NCBI RefSeq assembly: GCF_056712565.1
Contig: NZ_CM160072.1
Length of the DNA stretch: 64,000 bases
Reading direction: 5' to 3' (one strand)
Made by a program: the position numbers and the translations under genes. The notes below the pieces were generated by a model. That model made no database searches, was not told the origin of the DNA, and worked only from the letters and a program-made list of their open reading frames with translations. Each line of letters starts with the position of its first letter. Position 1 is the stretch's first letter. This document shows positions 45,483-52,912 of this stretch, piece by piece.

Positions 45483-48400
45483 ATGAGACACTTTATCTAT
45501 CAGGACGAAAAATCACATAAATTCTGGGCGGTGGAGCAACAGGGAAACGAGTTGCATATCAGTTGGGGAAAAGTTGGTACCCAAGAGCAAAGCCAGGTAA
45601 AAAGTTTTGCTGATGCTGTGGCAGCGGAAAAAGCGGAGCTGAAGCTGATTGCGGAGAAGGTGAAGAAGGGATATGTGGAGCAAGCGAAGGATAATTCTTT
45701 GCAACCTTCCCAAACGGTAACGGACTCTCTCAAGGTAGCGGACTTATCCACCATTATTCAGGAACAACCCTCTTTCGTAGCAGAAACCCGTGCGGCTGAC
45801 AAAAATACAGATGCTGTTTTACCGTGGCTGGCGAAAGATATTGCTGTCGTTTTTCCGCCCGAAGTTGTACACACCACGTTAAGTCATCGCCGCTTTCCCG
45901 GAGTTCCTGTTCAGCAAGCAGACAAATTGACCCAATTACGTCGCTTAGCCTGTAGTGTGTCGCAACGGGATAATACAACAGCCACATTTGACTTCAGCGC
46001 CTGTTCTTTAGAATGGCAAAACACCGTCGCCCAGGCGATCAGTCAGATCGACGACCTGAAAACAACACAGCTACCATCACCCGTAATGGCTGTACTCACG
46101 GCACTTGAAATGAAATGCACAAGATATAAAGAGCGTGAGGATGTTATGGATCAGATTATTCAGGAAGGCGGTCTGGAATATGCTACTGATGTAATAATAC
46201 ATCTTCAACAAATATCTATTGAATGGGATTATGTCAACAATAATATTGTTTTCCTGTCGTCTGGCATTTCACCTGATTATTTGCAGCAATATTCCAGCTT
46301 TGAATTACGCCTACGTAAACATTTATCACTGGCGGAAGAGTCTCTCTGGCAAAAATGTGCACAAAAACTTATTGCCGCAGTTCCACATATTCCAGAATGG
46401 CGGCAACCATTAATTGCTTTGTTATTGCCCGAAAAACCAGAAATTGCACATGAAATTGCCCAGCGTCTACTGGGGCAAAAGAAATTACCCTCGCTGGAGT
46501 GGCTAAAAATAGTGGCGACTGATGAGCACATTCTTGCCTCATTAGAAAAATATCACGAGCCATATGCCATTTTTGATGATTACTATTGTGGTGCGATATG
46601 GTCAGCCACCGTATTACAGGAGCAAGGTGTTGCGGCCCTGCCCCGATTTGCTCCCTATGTCGCAAGTGACTACTGCGCCGATGTGTTGCGTCATATCAAT
46701 CATCCGTTCGCATTAACACTGCTTATACGTGTAGCAGGGCATACTAAACGCTGTCACGATCGAATGACGAAAGCCTGCGCTGCGTTCCCACACGCAGCAC
46801 TGGCAGCACTGGCGGAACTTCTAGTGCAAAAAGAAGAGAATAGTTGGCGCATTATGCTAATGACGATGCTTATCTCGCAACCGACACTAGCAGAACAGGT
46901 CATTCCCTGGCTTTCGACACCCGCAGTTGCAGTGCTGAAATCATGCCAGCAACAACTGACACAGCCCTCAAACCATGCCAGCGCCGATCTACTGCCGGCC
47001 ATAGTAGTCTCCCCACCATGGCTTTCGAAAAAGAAAAAATCGCCGATTCCGGTGCTGGATTTAGCACCGCTCAACCTCGAATCCATATGCACAATAACCG
47101 ACACAGAAGCTAAAGAGTTTCAAACTCATTGGGACTGGGAACCGCATAAGCCAGGTGAAGGTGCTAAAAATTTCCTTTACTCGCTGGGGTATCGCCGCTG
47201 GGATTTTGACACATATAAATATATCGGCGCTTCTGACTCGGCAATTGACGCATGGGAACGTGAGGACTTCGCTACACTCATCCAAATGTTTAAAGCCCAC
47301 CATGCACCGTATCAGGGGGAGTGGCATCTCAACTCACTTCCCTTTTTACCTATGCAAAAAGCGATTAAGCTATGGGAATTTCTCAGCAAAGAGCCGCATA
47401 CCGCGATAAAACCAGTCATGCTTTATTTGCGACTGGCAGGTATGAGTGGTTTTCTACACTCGTTTTCACGCTACCCTCAAGAAGGTTTTGCGGTTGCTAA
47501 TTATTTTGCCGCAACGGAACTGGCTCCTGCCGTCGCCCGCGCCTTCAACAAACTCAAAACATTACGACAAGACGCCAGTAGCTGGCTGCTGAAATACCCG
47601 GAACACGCCATTACCGGCCTGCTGCCTGCAGCGCTCGGCAAAGCCAGTGAAGCACAGGACAACGCCCGTGCTGCCTTGCGTATGCTTACCGAAAACGGTC
47701 ATCAGCCATTGCTGCAAGAAATCGCCCGGCGTTATAACCAGCCGGAAGTAACCGATGCGGTGAACGCTCTACTTGCGCTCGATCCCTTAGATAATCACCC
47801 GACAAAAATCCCCACTCTTCCGACCTTTTATCAGCCATCGCTCTGGACGCGCCCGTTATTAAAAGCAAACGCCCAATCACTGCCTGATAGCGCACTCCTC
47901 CACCTCGGTGAAATGCTCCGCTTCCCTCAGGAAGAGGCACTGTATCCGGGATTATTGCAGGTGAAAGATGCCTGTACCACCGACTCACTGGCTGAATTTG
48001 CCTGGGATCTGTTTACCGCCTGGCAGACCGCTGGCGCGCCGTCGAAAGAGAGTTGGGCGTTCACTGCGTTAGGCGTTCTCGGTAACGATGACACCGCCCG
48101 CAAACTGACGCCTTTGATTCGCGCCTGGCCTGGTGAATCCCAGCATAAACGCGCCACCGTCGGGTTGGATATTCTCGCTGCTATCGGTAGTGATATCGCC
48201 CTGATGCAGCTTAACGGCATCGCCCAGAAACTGAAATTCAAAGCATTACAGGAGCGGGCAAAAGAAAAAATTGCCGACATTGCCGAGAGCCGCGAACTCA
48301 CGGTGGCGGAGCTTGAAGATCGGTTAGCACCGGATCTCGGTCTGGATGATAATGGTTCGTTGTTGCTGGATTTCGGCCCACGCCAGTTCACCGTCAGCTT

Positions 48401-49271
48401 TGATGAAACCTTAAAACCGTTTGTGCGTGACGCTTCCGGCAGTCGTCTGAAAGACCTGCCCAAACCAAACAAAAGCGATGATGAATCACAGGCGAACGAT
48501 GCTGTTAACCGCTACAAATTGCTGAAAAAAGATGCGCGTACCGTCGCCGCCCAGCAGGTAGCAAGGCTGGAATCCGCCATGTGCCTGCGTCGCCGCTGGT
48601 CACCGGAAAACTTTCAGCTCTTCCTGGTTGAGCATCCGCTGGTCCGCCACTTAACCCACCGTCTGATTTGGGGCGTTTATAGCGCCGAAAACCAGCTACT
48701 GGCTTGCTTTCGCGTAGCGGAAGATAACAGCTACAGCACCGCTGACGATGATCTTTTCACCCTGCCGGAAGGCGATATCTCTATTGGTATTCCTCACGTT
48801 CTGGAAATATCACCGACGGATGCTGCCGCCTTCGGGCAGCTTTTTGCCGACTACGAACTGTTACCACCGTTCCGCCAGCTTGATCGTAACAGTTACGCGC
48901 TGACAGAAGCCGAGCGCAACGCCAGCGAACTGACACGCTGGACAGGCAGAAAATGCCCGAGTGGTCGGGTAATGGGGCTGGCGAATAAAGGCTGGATAAA
49001 GGGCACCCCGCAGGATGCTGGCTGGATCGGCTGGATGATCAACCCCCTGGGCCGCTGGTCGTTAATCATGGAAATCGATGAAGATTTTGCGGTAGGCATG
49101 TCGCCAGCCGAACTGAGTGCCGAGCAACTCTTAAGCAAGCTGTGGCTATGGGAAGGCAAAGCGGAAAGCTATGGCTGGGGGAGTAATTCAACACAGGAAG
49201 CGCAGTTCTCCGTACTCGATGCCATCACCGCCAGCGAGCTAATTAACGATATTGAAGCCCTGTTTGAATAA
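45483..49271 (+). CDS. molR: MolR-like protein, intact: N-terminal WGR domain plus large DUF4132-type body
   Basis: 1262-aa uninterrupted ORF; N-terminus KFWAVEQQGNELHISWGKVGTQEQ matches WGR pattern; paralogous to yehI. Confidence 0.75.
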   Translation: MRHFIYQDEKSHKFWAVEQQGNELHISWGKVGTQEQSQVKSFADAVAAEKAELKLIAEKVKKGYVEQAKDNSLQPSQTVTDSLKVADLSTIIQEQPSFVAETRAADKNTDAVLPWLAKDIAVVFPPEVVHTTLSHRRFPGVPVQQADKLTQLRRLACSVSQRDNTTATFDFSACSLEWQNTVAQAISQIDDLKTTQLPSPVMAVLTALEMKCTRYKEREDVMDQIIQEGGLEYATDVIIHLQQISIEWDYVNNNIVFLSSGISPDYLQQYSSFELRLRKHLSLAEESLWQKCAQKLIAAVPHIPEWRQPLIALLLPEKPEIAHEIAQRLLGQKKLPSLEWLKIVATDEHILASLEKYHEPYAIFDDYYCGAIWSATVLQEQGVAALPRFAPYVASDYCADVLRHINHPFALTLLIRVAGHTKRCHDRMTKACAAFPHAALAALAELLVQKEENSWRIMLMTMLISQPTLAEQVIPWLSTPAVAVLKSCQQQLTQPSNHASADLLPAIVVSPPWLSKKKKSPIPVLDLAPLNLESICTITDTEAKEFQTHWDWEPHKPGEGAKNFLYSLGYRRWDFDTYKYIGASDSAIDAWEREDFATLIQMFKAHHAPYQGEWHLNSLPFLPMQKAIKLWEFLSKEPHTAIKPVMLYLRLAGMSGFLHSFSRYPQEGFAVANYFAATELAPAVARAFNKLKTLRQDASSWLLKYPEHAITGLLPAALGKASEAQDNARAALRMLTENGHQPLLQEIARRYNQPEVTDAVNALLALDPLDNHPTKIPTLPTFYQPSLWTRPLLKANAQSLPDSALLHLGEMLRFPQEEALYPGLLQVKDACTTDSLAEFAWDLFTAWQTAGAPSKESWAFTALGVLGNDDTARKLTPLIRAWPGESQHKRATVGLDILAAIGSDIALMQLNGIAQKLKFKALQERAKEKIADIAESRELTVAELEDRLAPDLGLDDNGSLLLDFGPRQFTVSFDETLKPFVRDASGSRLKDLPKPNKSDDESQANDAVNRYKLLKKDARTVAAQQVARLESAMCLRRRWSPENFQLFLVEHPLVRHLTHRLIWGVYSAENQLLACFRVAEDNSYSTADDDLFTLPEGDISIGIPHVLEISPTDAAAFGQLFADYELLPPFRQLDRNSYALTEAERNASELTRWTGRKCPSGRVMGLANKGWIKGTPQDAGWIGWMINPLGRWSLIMEIDEDFAVGMSPAELSAEQLLSKLWLWEGKAESYGWGSNSTQEAQFSVLDAITASELINDIEALFE

Positions 49272-52200: not shown

Positions 52201-52912
52201 GGCCCGACTCAAAGGGCTAAAAAAAGATGCGACTCAGGTGAGCAAAAACCTGCTCCCGCGTCTTGAAACTGCCCTGCGCACCACCCGACGCTGGTCGCTG
52301 GCAGATTTTCATTCTCTGTTTGTTAATCATCCCTTTACCCGTCTGGTTACTCAGCGATTAATATGGGGGGTTTATCCGGCAAATGAACCGCGTCGTTTAC
52401 TTAACGCCTTTCGTGTGGCCGCTGAGGGGGAGTTCTGCAATGAGCAAGATGAGCCAATTGACCTGCCTGCCGATGCTCTGATTGGCATTGCCCACCCGTT
52501 AGAAATGACAGCAGAAATGCGCAGTGAATTTGCACAGCTTTTTGCCGATTACGAAATTATGCCGCCTTTTCGCCAGTTGACGCGGCGCACAGTGCTGCTC
52601 ACGCCTGACGAGTCAGCCAGTAATAGTTTGAATCGCTGGGAAGGTAAATCTGCTACCGTTGGGCAGCTTATGGGAATGCGATACAAAGGCTGGGAGTCAG
52701 GCTATGAGGACGCATTTGTCTATGACTTAGGTGCGTACCGGCTGGTCCTTAAGTTTTCACCCGGTTTTAACCATTACAGTACTGATAGCAAAGCGCTAAT
52801 GAGCTTCCGTTCTCTTCGGGTTTACCGTGACAATAAATCCGTCACTTTTGCCGAACTTGATGTGTTTGATTTGAGTGAGGCATTAAGCGCACCTGACGTC
52901 ATTTTCCATTAA
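49281..52912 (+). pseudogene. yehI: yehI (DUF4132 family) disrupted by a -1 frameshift in an A7 run
   Basis: ORFs 49281-49523 and 49520-52912 are in different frames; restoring one A at 49448-49454 gives a continuous reading ...AEKKKNIVWRYENFSLEWQ... Confidence 0.7.

What the first reader, a model, noticed from the sequence alone, without database searches (positions are those of the whole stretch)
45483..52912. Tandem giant DUF4132 paralogs: molR intact with WGR domain, yehI broken
molR here is an uninterrupted 1262-codon gene with an N-terminal WGR-like nucleic-acid-binding domain. Its downstream paralog yehI shares blocks such as FDLRLRKHLSLAEE, LDFGPRQFTV and QLFADYE(L/I)(L/M)PPFRQL but lacks the WGR N-terminus. 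From memory, K-12 has the opposite state (molR a pseudogene, yehI intact), suggesting functional redundancy and alternating decay.
Basis: partly seen in the sequence, partly recalled or inferred. Interest (0 to 1): 0.3.

Follow-up and report, generated by a model that had tools for sequence, protein, structure and literature searches.

The report
Eroding DUF4132 paralog array in E. coli
Two giant neighbouring E. coli genes of unknown function are correctly described (molR intact, yehI broken by one missing base), but this is ordinary lineage-specific gene decay in a variable gene array attached to an uncharacterised ATPase machine, not a reciprocal swap with K-12.

Summary
molR (45483-49271) is an intact 1262-codon gene with WGR and DUF4132 domains. 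yehI (49281-52912) is its 37%-identical paralog without WGR, broken by a one-base deletion in a poly-A run. The lesion is real: 29 of 5,426 complete E. coli genomes share it, including early reference genomes. K-12 has the opposite state through two independent molR lesions.

"Alternating decay" is not the general pattern. In 17 sampled genomes yehI was intact in 16 and molR in 10, and 9 had both intact. One genome had both broken. In this lineage a 7-bp deletion in yehM came before the yehI frameshift, and yehK is also broken.

Wider findings:
- About 30% of E. coli carry a third paralog upstream.
- The window's molR is a fusion left by deletion of that paralog.
- MolR has a 160-residue cassette in discrete allele classes, only 37-49% identical between classes.
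- In 59 of 75 loci from other bacteria, one or more (at least seven) DUF4132 genes sit beside a MoxR ATPase, DUF5682, VWA and SWIM gene cluster.

The function is still unknown. My inferred reading is interchangeable adaptor subunits of that ATPase machine. As a finding it is ordinary; the locus is more interesting.

The parts
45352..45375 (+). metG terminator-like hairpin, marking the upstream boundary of the molR transcription unit
   Evidence: Terminator scan: 9-bp stem with 6 GC pairs followed by a T-run. metG ends at 45342.
45456..45475 (+). LexA (SOS) box-like palindrome AACTGGATAAAATTACAGGG, 8 nt upstream of the molR ATG
   Evidence: Read directly from the sequence. The CTG-N10-CAG core was found at 45458-45473. 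A review lists molR among LexA-regulated genes with a known SOS box (PMC6590174). The box was seen only in Escherichia among 64 testable related loci.
45483..49271 (+). molR (array member P2, here a P1::P2 hybrid): intact 1262-aa WGR + HEAT-like solenoid + DUF4132 protein
   Evidence: ORF. Pfam WGR and DUF4132. AF2 model of aa 109-1262: pLDDT 92.3, pTM 0.86, mostly helical repeats with a C-terminal alpha/beta module. PDB profile and fold hits are only to HEAT/alphaRep-type repeats. dN/dS 0.25 across E. coli.
45483..45658 (+). 5' segment of molR derived from the lost upstream paralog P1. The crossover lies at about codon 47-59, inside the WGR-coding region.
   Evidence: The upstream region and the first ~150 nt match the P1 genes of 3-paralog strains (near-identical to E. 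whittamii P1). The P2 genes of the same strains differ. From about nt 177 the window matches P2.
45498..45689 (+). WGR domain coding region (aa 6-69)
   Evidence: Pfam PF05406 E=1.8e-15. Profile match to the solved WGR-containing protein 2ra8_A (E=1.2e-22) and to the PARP3 WGR domain 2eoc_A.
47043..47522 (+). Hypervariable allelic cassette of MolR (aa 521-680), class A
   Evidence: Identity within a class is 91-100% and between classes only 37-49%, while the rest of the protein is 92-95% identical (windowed identity). The class-A DNA is found in only 625 of 5,426 genomes at >=95% identity and is essentially unalignable in the others.
48438..48995 (+). DUF4132 domain of MolR (aa 986-1171), part of the most conserved C-terminal ~320-aa module
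49281..52912 (+). yehI (array member P3, no WGR): a pseudogene through a single frameshift
   Evidence: ORFs 49281-49523 and 49520-52912. PGAP note 'frameshifted'. 92.3% DNA identity to intact K-12 yehI with one gap.
49449..49455 (+). The yehI lesion: a poly-A run of 7 where intact alleles have 8
   Evidence: Alignments to K-12 and to strain TUM13773. The allele is shared by 29 of 5,426 genomes.
52973..53289 (+). yehK, a small (105-aa) cluster gene, frameshifted by a 1-base deletion near 53152 (codon 60)
   Evidence: Alignment to K-12, H4 and H5. PGAP flags it 'frameshifted' in H1, H2, H22 and H25.
54069..55157 (+). yehL, a MoxR-type AAA_5 ATPase, intact
   Evidence: Annotation. Pfam AAA_5 E=1.6e-34. 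Closest solved sequence relatives are midasin AAA domains, E=3e-10. dN/dS 0.03.
55164..57440 (+). yehM (DUF5682) with a 7-bp deletion just after 55187 (codons 7-9). An alternative ATG at 55164 keeps a 758-aa ORF with a changed N-terminus.
   Evidence: Alignment to TUM13773 and sequence reads. PGAP note 'frameshifted'. The allele is in 129 of 5,426 genomes.
57433..58569 (+). yehP, a CoxE-type VWA protein, intact
   Evidence: Annotation. Pfam VWA_CoxE E=7.6e-72 on the ortholog. dN/dS 0.05.
58566..60569 (+). yehQ, a SWIM zinc-finger protein, intact
   Evidence: Annotation. Pfam SWIM E=6.9e-8 on the ortholog. dN/dS 0.10.

Best explanation
SHOWN. The interval holds the two-gene version of a variable tandem array of giant proteins (about 1,200-1,270 aa). 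Each is a HEAT-like helical solenoid ending in a conserved DUF4132 alpha/beta module. The array heads the conserved yehL-yehM-yehP-yehQ cluster (MoxR-type AAA_5 ATPase, DUF5682, CoxE-type VWA, SWIM zinc finger).

molR is intact and carries an N-terminal WGR domain. It is itself a fusion: a deletion of about 3.8 kb joined the promoter and the first ~50 codons of a lost upstream paralog (P1) to the second paralog (P2). P1 is still present in about 30% of E. coli, and Klebsiella oxytoca carries a more distant counterpart (57% identical).

yehI is a very recent pseudogene with a single lesion, A8->A7. The lesion is confined to a small branch (29/5,426 genomes) of the B2 lineage that holds APEC O1, IHE3034 and UM146; assigning these to ST95 rests on my own knowledge. 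In the listed rows, that branch lies within the 129 genomes already carrying a 7-bp deletion at the start of yehM. K-12's opposite state comes from unrelated lesions.

INFERRED (evolution). The array members are individually dispensable and fast-evolving, and they erode lineage by lineage. molR and P1 erode more often than yehI. The window shows ordinary erosion of the cluster, not reciprocal sorting of two redundant copies.

INFERRED (mechanism, about 0.3 on its own). MolR, YehI and P1 are interchangeable recognition or adaptor subunits.
- The swappable central cassette (aa 521-680) would set what is recognised.
- The WGR domain would tether some members to nucleic acid.
- The invariant DUF4132 C-terminal module would dock them onto an ATP-driven remodelling complex built from YehL (AAA+ ring), YehP (VWA/MIDAS), YehM and YehQ.
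- In Escherichia the unit is transcribed from a promoter carrying a LexA box, so it would be deployed during the SOS response.
For: - Identity and lesions.
- The mutation is real and lineage-restricted: (29 genomes). One search gives 129 genomes with the yehM deletion; the A7 genomes listed also appear, whereas NU14, APEC O18 and ATCC 11775 have the yehM deletion but A8.
- Both genes are intact in most sampled genomes.
- Third paralog: (1,630/5,426 genomes).
- Hybrid origin of molR.
- Linkage to yehLMPQ: 59 of 75 genome loci across Beta- and Gammaproteobacteria, Trichlorobacter, Holophagales and Mycolicibacterium have the cassette adjacent on the same strand, and 51 have all four genes. Array size runs from 1 to at least 7. 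A metagenome example has the same order.
- Gradient of constraint (dN/dS): yehL 0.03, yehP 0.05, yehQ 0.10, yehM 0.12, yehI 0.20, molR 0.25.
- Discrete cassette alleles.
- Solenoid architecture with a conserved C-terminal module.
- YehL resembles midasin AAA domains, and YehP is a VWA protein.
- LexA box in the sequence and SOS-regulon listing. Deinococcus WGR and DUF4132 proteins are induced when DdrO is depleted.
Against: - No physical or functional evidence links MolR/YehI to YehLMPQ; the link is gene order only.
- More distant DUF4132 homologs in metagenome contigs stand alone.
- Sixteen of the 75 genome loci lack the cassette, though some of these are cut inside arrays.
- The LexA box is not found upstream of the array outside Escherichia, so an SOS role is not a family property.
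- Fold searches gave no functional clue for DUF4132.
- No effector-like domain was identified in any cluster protein, and there were no PADLOC hits.
- The 17-genome sample is small, and the collection is biased toward clinical and laboratory strains.
- The yehM lesion may be rescued by an upstream ATG, so whether the cluster is dead in this lineage is unknown.
Confidence: 0.6

Rival explanations
1. One reading: molR and yehI are functionally redundant, so lineages keep one and lose the other (alternating decay).
For: - K-12 and the window show opposite states.
- Related species have only one array member next to yehLMPQ: a WGR-bearing one in Erwinia and a WGR-less one in Intestinirhabdus. One member may therefore suffice.
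- The array members have the highest dN/dS in the cluster.
Against: - Both genes are intact in 9 of 17 sampled genomes.
- yehI is broken in 1 of 17 against molR in 7 of 17, and that one genome has both broken.
- The paralogs are only 37% identical, differ in WGR, and molR has its own allelic cassette. This argues for distinct rather than identical roles.
- Other cluster genes are broken in the same lineages.
Confidence: 0.2
2. The whole yeh system is already dead in this lineage. The yehM 5' deletion came first, so yehI decay is neutral, and molR is intact only because it has not yet been hit.
For: - Alleles overlap in the listed rows: the yehM deletion is in 129 genomes and the yehI frameshift in a 29-genome set.
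- yehK is also frameshifted.
- Three of the 49 genes in this 50-kb stretch are pseudogenes, and all three are in the yeh cluster.
Against: - An ATG 4 nt upstream restores the yehM frame, changing only the first ~8 residues.
- yehL, yehP and yehQ are intact.
- molR pN/pS against a related B2 strain is 0.21, no higher than the species-wide value. There are too few substitutions to be decisive.
Confidence: 0.35
3. The yehI frameshift is a sequencing or assembly artefact in a homopolymer.
For: The lesion lies in a poly-A run, which is a typical error site.
Against: The identical allele is in 29 independently sequenced complete genomes, including early reference genomes (APEC O1, UM146, IHE3034). 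Close relatives carry A8.
Confidence: 0.02
4. The A-run is a slippage or phase-variation site, so full-length or N-terminally truncated YehI is still made (by transcriptional or ribosomal -1 slippage, or by re-initiation at the TTG at 49520, which overlaps the TGA stop).
For: - The downstream frame is -1 relative to the upstream frame, and the run reads AAG AAA AAA ACA.
- The stop and start overlap as T-TGA.
Against: - Only two run lengths were seen (A7 and A8), and A7 is clade-restricted rather than scattered.
- No Shine-Dalgarno sequence precedes the candidate restart codons.
- Slippage on A7 is expected to be inefficient (established knowledge).
Confidence: 0.05
5. The cluster with its DUF4132 array is an anti-phage or anti-mobile-element defence system, and the array members are diversifying sensors.
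For: - Discrete, deeply divergent cassette alleles.
- Copy-number variation from 1 to at least 7.
- Frequent pseudogenisation.
- An NTPase plus VWA core, as in described MoxR-vWA conflict systems (PMC7159879).
- SOS control in Escherichia.
Against: - No PADLOC hit for any component.
- No recognisable effector domain.
- The locus is a fixed chromosomal core locus in 5,425 of 5,426 genomes rather than a mobile island.
- No paper in the held library links WGR or DUF4132 to defence.
Confidence: 0.2
6. MolR is a transcription factor that regulates molybdate metabolism, as the historical name says.
For: The name dates from Lee et al. 1990, cited. WGR has been described as a DNA-binding domain of 'MolR-like TFs' (PMC7824862).
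Against: - There is no helix-turn-helix or other classical regulator domain; about 1,150 residues are solenoid plus DUF4132.
- The gene is broken in K-12, where molybdate regulation works. Current RefSeq has dropped the name for yehF/yehH.
- The conserved neighbours are an ATPase, VWA and SWIM set, not molybdenum genes.
- Molybdate genes were unaffected in the Deinococcus study.
Confidence: 0.04

Closest known systems
E. coli K-12 yehF/yehH ('molR' pseudogene) and yehI (b2115-b2118)
   Same: Same locus between metG and yehK. Same two paralogs, the same hybrid P1::P2 junction in molR (99% identical 5' end) and the same domain content.
   Different: The lesions are reversed and unrelated. K-12 has a nonsense plus a frameshift in molR; the window has a 1-base deletion in yehI. 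DNA identity is only 89.5% for molR and 92.3% for yehI, against 96.3% for metG. The sampled alleles with K-12-length molR products (1264 aa; H5, H6, H13, H16, H18) carry cassette class B; K-12 itself was not placed in a class.
MoxR AAA+ / VWA partner pairs (RavA-ViaA, CoxD-CoxE, NorQ-NorD, CbbQ-CbbO; established knowledge)
   Same: YehL is a MoxR-type AAA_5 ATPase and YehP a CoxE-type VWA protein encoded nearby. The likely logic is the same: an ATPase ring plus a MIDAS adaptor remodelling a client.
   Different: The yeh cluster adds DUF5682, a SWIM protein and one or more (at least seven) giant DUF4132 solenoid proteins. None of these belongs to the characterised pairs. No client enzyme is encoded nearby.
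Midasin/Rea1 (eukaryotic AAA_5 ring with a MIDAS domain)
   Same: Midasin AAA domains are YehL's closest solved sequence relatives (E=3e-10). The combination of an AAA_5 motor and a VWA/MIDAS element is the same.
   Different: Midasin is one ~4,900-aa polypeptide acting in ribosome biogenesis. Here the parts are separate proteins. Similarity is limited to the ATPase fold, and no functional parallel was tested.
MoxR-vWA 'ternary' conflict systems (Kaur et al. 2020, PMC7159879)
   Same: An NTPase plus vWA core with a diversifying third component. Copy-number and allelic diversification are seen here too.
   Different: YehL scores below the Pfam bpMoxR cut-off (18.6 against 27 bits). No effector or death-type domains were found. 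That paper does not mention SWIM. No PADLOC models match.
WGR domain of PARP1-3
   Same: MolR aa 6-69 match Pfam WGR, and the family profile matches the PARP3 WGR structure 2eoc.
   Different: There is no PARP catalytic domain. Nucleic-acid binding by MolR is untested.
Swappable target-recognition domains of type I restriction HsdS subunits (established knowledge; analogy only)
   Same: A conserved framework carries a discrete, deeply divergent allelic cassette that is exchanged within a species.
   Different: No homology, and no evidence that the MolR cassette recognises DNA.

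Membership tests
DUF4132 (Pfam PF13569) | Match to the family profile above the gathering score (27 bits) | tested here: met
   MolR 173.4 bits. Window YehI C-fragment 159.1 bits. K-12 YehI 161.8 bits. P1 and P2 of a 3-paralog strain 168 and 179 bits.
WGR domain proteins (Pfam PF05406) | Match to the WGR profile above the gathering score (22 bits) | tested here: met
   MolR 57.3 bits at aa 6-69. K-12 YehF 61 bits.
WGR domain proteins (Pfam PF05406), applied to YehI | Match to the WGR profile above the gathering score | tested here: not met
   No WGR hit in the window's 80-aa N-fragment, the 1130-aa C-fragment or intact K-12 YehI. YehI aligns to MolR only from MolR residue 110.
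Pseudogene (yehI in this window) | Reading frame disrupted relative to intact orthologs, with the lesion shown to be a real allele | tested here: met
   A7 against A8. Restoring one base gives 1210 aa with no stop. The allele is shared by 29 genomes.
LexA (SOS) regulon | A CTG-N10-CAG LexA box at the promoter | tested here: met
   AACTGGATAAAATTACAGGG at 45456-45475. Listed as a known SOS box gene in PMC6590174.
LexA (SOS) regulon | LexA binding and DNA-damage induction in this strain | not testable with these tools
   Needs ChIP or expression data. The literature statement refers to K-12.
Known anti-phage defence systems (PADLOC-DB v2) | A profile match of any component to a catalogued defence protein | tested here: not met
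   No hits for MolR, YehI, YehK, YehL, YehM, YehP or YehQ at E<=0.01.
MoxR-vWA-beta-propeller ternary conflict systems | A bpMoxR-type ATPase (PF20030) above the gathering score, with vWA and associated effector components | tested here: not met
   bpMoxR 18.6 bits against a 27-bit cut-off. vWA is present, but no effector or beta-propeller component was found.
MoxR AAA+ / VWA remodelling pairs | A MoxR-type AAA+ ATPase gene near a VWA-domain gene in the same cluster | tested here: met
   YehL AAA_5 119 bits. YehP VWA_CoxE 242 bits. The order is conserved in 51-59 of 75 loci.
MoxR AAA+ / VWA remodelling pairs | Physical ATPase-VWA-client complex and ATP-dependent remodelling | not testable with these tools
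   Requires biochemistry or complex structure prediction, which these tools do not offer.
Molybdate metabolism regulator (historical 'MolR') | Sequence-specific regulator controlling molybdate uptake or cofactor genes | not tested
   No classical DNA-binding regulator domain was found. The original paper is not held. The genomic context is unrelated to molybdenum.

The most novel reading that the evidence does not exclude
The tandem DUF4132 proteins are the diversifying specificity subunits of an uncharacterised, widely distributed MoxR-DUF5682-VWA-SWIM ATP-driven machine. Their features are a swappable 160-aa cassette, an array size of 1 to at least 7, and an optional WGR nucleic-acid tether. 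In Escherichia the machine is wired to the SOS response. It would be a new class of surveillance or conflict system, acting against invading DNA or phage or on damaged DNA-protein complexes. Its erosion pattern in E. coli lineages would record changing selective pressure.
Probability: 0.25. Interest if true: 0.7.

Novelty: already known. Interest (0 to 1): 0.3.

Why it matters
As stated, the finding is an annotated pseudogene polymorphism in known genes of unknown function, and it changes little. It does point at one of the larger uncharacterised blocks of the E. coli core genome: about 15 kb, present in 5,425 of 5,426 complete genomes.

This analysis gives the block testable structure:
- A conserved ATPase, VWA, SWIM and DUF5682 core.
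- A variable array of giant solenoid proteins with a conserved docking-type C-terminus.
- A cassette with discrete alleles.
- Natural knock-outs of nearly every component in named, available strains: K-12, APEC O1/UTI89-type strains, O157/O55, and ST131 with a resistance transposon in the array.

These natural variants make a function screen cheap to design. The result is also a caution against inferring reciprocal paralog loss from two genomes.

Tried and rejected
- PADLOC scan of all seven cluster proteins: no hits.
- PHROG hits were near-identical full-length matches of unknown function. They most likely derive from chromosomal DNA mis-binned as prophage, and are uninformative.
- NCBIfam gave only sub-threshold hits: a WGR match to a Leptospira fibronectin-binding family, GvpN and a cobaltochelatase.
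- Fold searches:
- YehM and YehQ have no solved sequence relatives.
- I tested whether the LexA box is a conserved feature of the family. It is not; it occurs only in Escherichia. The SOS link was therefore downgraded from a family property to a genus-level regulatory feature.
- Sequencing artefact for the yehI frameshift: rejected.
- The first attempt at a genome-collection scan, with a 24-sequence alignment, failed for lack of a conserved stretch. It was repeated with 8 sequences.
- Literature: DUF4132 occurs in only 4 held papers, none functional. Searches on yeh gene names were mostly noise. Lee et al. 1990 is not held. I recall it mapping molR elsewhere on the chromosome, but could not check this and do not rely on it.
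- pN/pS between the window and a close B2 relative had too few substitutions to show relaxed selection.

Full report
**1. What the window is**

**2. Check of the observation**

All descriptive statements hold.
- molR (45483-49271) is one 1262-codon ORF. It has Pfam WGR at residues 6-69 (E=1.8e-15) and DUF4132 at 986-1171 (E=5.7e-51).
- yehI is split into an 80-aa ORF and a 1130-aa ORF.
- The yehI product aligns to MolR at 37% identity over 1,195 residues, starting at MolR residue 110. It therefore lacks the WGR part.
- The three quoted motif blocks are present in both proteins.

The break is a single missing base in a poly-A run: A8 in K-12 and in a close B2 relative, A7 at 49449-49455 here. 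Putting the base back gives an uninterrupted 1210-aa protein.

Homopolymers are error-prone, so I tested the allele in the population. The exact 71-mer with A7 is present in 29 genomes, including APEC O1, IHE3034, UM146 and IMT5155. Close relatives such as NU14, APEC O18 and ATCC 11775 have A8. The mutation is real and clade-restricted. These strains are ST95-type B2 by my own knowledge.

**3. K-12**

K-12 has yehF (WGR, 274 aa) plus the yehH pseudogene in place of molR, and an intact 1210-aa yehI. K-12 molR carries two lesions: TTA->TGA at codon 275, inside the FELRLRKHLSL motif, and an extra G near codon 949. The nonsense allele is in 706 genomes and the frameshift in 352. The numbers fit the frameshift arising later within the nonsense-bearing lineage, though I did not check that the two sets are nested. 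Many of these genomes are laboratory K-12 derivatives.

**4. Is it 'alternating decay'?**

I read the annotation of 17 genomes taken at even steps down the similarity ranking.
- molR (P2) was intact in 10 and broken in 7.
- The molR lesions were internal stops, splits, a resistance transposon in an ST131-like strain, and frameshifts in O157/O55.
- yehI was intact in 16 and broken in 1, and that genome also had a broken molR.

The usual state is therefore both intact. The K-12-like state is common and the window-like state is rare.

Decay is not confined to the pair either. The window's yehM has a 7-bp deletion, one copy of a CGGCATC tandem, at codons 7-9. That allele is in 129 genomes (UTI89, S88, NU14, APEC O1 and others). 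In the listed rows these include the A7 genomes, so the yehM lesion came first.

An ATG 4 nt upstream restores the frame with a changed N-terminus, so I cannot say yehM is dead. yehK is frameshifted near 53152 in this and other B2 strains. K-12's yehQ ends 52 residues early.

The picture is lineage-specific erosion of a cluster, asymmetric between the paralogs. It is not reciprocal sorting.

**5. The pair is part of a variable array**

Some E. coli have three tandem paralogs, P1-P2(molR)-P3(yehI).
- P1 is covered at >=80% in 1,630 of 5,426 genomes.
- P1 has WGR and DUF4132 and is about 45% identical to MolR.
- A close counterpart exists in Escherichia whittamii (88% identical) and a more distant one in Klebsiella oxytoca (57%), so P1 is old.

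In two-gene strains, including the window and K-12, the intergenic region and the first ~150 nt of molR are P1-type and the rest is P2-type. The switch falls at about codon 47-59, inside the WGR-coding region. 'molR' here is therefore a fusion, left by a deletion of about 3.8 kb between the homologous 5' ends of P1 and P2.

**6. A cassette with discrete alleles**

Among 12 MolR alleles, residues 521-680 fall into three classes.
- The window, three other E. coli strains and E. whittamii form class A.
- Six E. coli strains form class B.
- The P2 of a three-paralog strain forms class C.

Identity within a class is 91-100% and between classes 37-49%. The rest of the protein is 92-95% identical (about 80% for class C). 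At the DNA level the window's cassette is found in only 625 of 5,426 genomes and is essentially unalignable in the others. The C-terminal ~340 residues are 94-99% conserved.

**7. Conserved partners**

MolR-like proteins form a large family: 5,903 clusters at 50% identity with E<1e-3. In 75 loci from named genomes, 59 have homologs of YehL, YehM, YehP and/or YehQ directly adjacent on the same strand, and 51 have all four. The taxa include:
- Variovorax, Acidovorax, Burkholderia and Massilia
- Lysobacter, Tahibacter, Erwinia and Klebsiella
- Trichlorobacter, Holophagales and Mycolicibacterium

The number of tandem DUF4132 genes varies from 1 to at least 7. A metagenome contig shows the same order. 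More distant homologs stand alone.

The partner proteins are:
- YehL: a MoxR-type AAA_5 ATPase whose closest solved relatives are midasin AAA domains.
- YehP: a CoxE-type VWA protein.
- YehM: DUF5682.
- YehQ: has a SWIM zinc finger.

Within E. coli, dN/dS rises across the cluster:

| Gene | dN/dS |
|---|---|
| metG (control) | 0.01 |
| yehL | 0.03 |
| yehP | 0.05 |
| yehQ | 0.10 |
| yehM | 0.12 |
| yehI | 0.20 |
| molR | 0.25 |

The core is conserved and the array is the fast-evolving part.

**8. Structure**

An AlphaFold2 model of MolR 109-1262 is confident (pLDDT 92.3, pTM 0.86). It shows a long helical-repeat solenoid followed by an alpha/beta module.
- Sequence profiles match designed HEAT-like alphaRep proteins.

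No catalytic fold is evident.

**9. Regulation**

A LexA-box-like palindrome, AACTGGATAAAATTACAGGG, sits 8 nt upstream of the molR ATG.
- A review lists molR among LexA-regulated genes with a known SOS box (PMC6590174).
- BglJ-RcsB activates the K-12 molR promoter (PMC3950696).
- In Deinococcus, a WGR protein and a DUF4132 protein are strongly induced when the DNA-damage repressor DdrO is depleted (PMC8533742).

However, I found the box upstream of the array only in Escherichia among 64 testable loci. The SOS link is not a conserved family property.

**10. Most likely mechanism (inferred)**

The array proteins look like interchangeable recognition or adaptor subunits.
- The HEAT-like solenoid is a typical binding scaffold.
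- The allelic cassette is the likely specificity element.
- WGR is an optional nucleic-acid tether on some members.
- The near-invariant DUF4132 module is the likely docking element for the YehL/YehP (AAA+ plus MIDAS) machine together with YehM and YehQ.

I put this at about 0.3. What the machine acts on is unknown. A defence or conflict role is suggested by the diversification, copy-number variation and frequent loss. Against it are the absence of PADLOC hits, the lack of an effector domain, and the fixed core-genome location. The historical 'molybdate regulator' label has no support in domain content or context.

**11. Comparison with known systems and novelty**

The genes, their domains and the pseudogene flags are already in RefSeq. 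The ST131 transposon insertion in 'the DUF4132 region' is published (PMC9334617). The finding itself is therefore already known and ordinary.

The following I did not find described in the held literature:
- the hybrid origin of molR
- the three-paralog ancestral state
- the overlap of the yehM and yehI lesions
- the cassette allele classes
- the breadth of the DUF4132/yehLMPQ linkage

**12. Verdict**

Interest is 0.3. The upside lies in the uncharacterised system, with probability about 0.25 that it is a new kind of diversifying surveillance machine.

Noticed in passing
window 53549-53638 (-) and 53884-53957 (+): A single zorO/orzO type I toxin-antitoxin locus lies between yehK and yehL. It comprises a 29-aa ORF, MDTLTQKLTVLIAVLELLVALLRLIDLLK, and an OrzO-P RNA (Rfam RF02083, 91.5 bits). 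This accounts for the ~470 bp the window has here beyond K-12. The locus is known from Fozo et al. 2010 (PMC2887945), which reports it absent from MG1655.
   Followed up: yes
window about 1-17,900; cargo gene 9589-11805 (+): A P2-like prophage (integrase, cox, replication endonuclease, portal, terminase, capsid, lysis genes) is inserted next to yegR. Between the replication and portal genes it carries a 738-aa AAA_13 ATPase. This matches the PADLOC candidate defence family PDC-S06 (E=1.3e-254).
   Followed up: partly
window 55164-55200: The 7-bp deletion in yehM removes one copy of a CGGCATC tandem. An ATG 4 nt upstream of the canonical start restores the frame, giving MYERAVNC-RHHSPACAR... 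instead of MSEPLIVGI-RHHSPACAR.... The gene is flagged as a pseudogene but may still be expressed. The allele is in 129 of 5,426 genomes.
   Followed up: partly
window 52973-53289: yehK (105 aa, no family match in Pfam, NCBIfam or PADLOC) is frameshifted at codon 60. The same flag appears in other B2-type genomes (H2, H22, H25). In one sampled strain a different 100-aa 'hypothetical protein' is annotated in its place.
   Followed up: partly
L004 (K-12) 15101-16945, compared with L007 22383-24383: K-12 yehQ ends 52 residues before the 666-aa form found in other strains, with no indel. This looks like a premature stop. K-12 would then have lesions in two cluster genes, molR and yehQ.
   Followed up: partly
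L034, L055, L058, L073 (Massilia species): These loci hold arrays of 5 to at least 7 tandem DUF4132 genes. Some run off the ends of 18-24 kb loci, and one (L034) ends in the yehLMPQ-like cassette. This is a far larger expansion than in enterobacteria.
   Followed up: no
L096 (NZ_CM190157.1) 1-8660: An IS26/Tn3-bounded blaCTX-M-15 transposon truncates the DUF4132 array, leaving P2 without its N-terminus. This matches the published TnMB1860 insertion in ST131 sublineage L1a (PMC9334617).
   Followed up: partly
L102 (NZ_CP047378.1) 783-4271: This MolR allele is 1162 aa, with about 104 residues missing in frame (gaps between residues 578 and 905 of the window protein). It is annotated as intact. 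It may be a natural internal deletion variant.
   Followed up: no
window molR and yehI compared with metG: Divergence between the window and K-12 is unusually high for core genes: molR 89.5% and yehI 92.3% DNA identity, against 96.3% for the adjacent metG. MolR alleles within E. coli fall to 75-76% amino-acid identity.
   Followed up: yes
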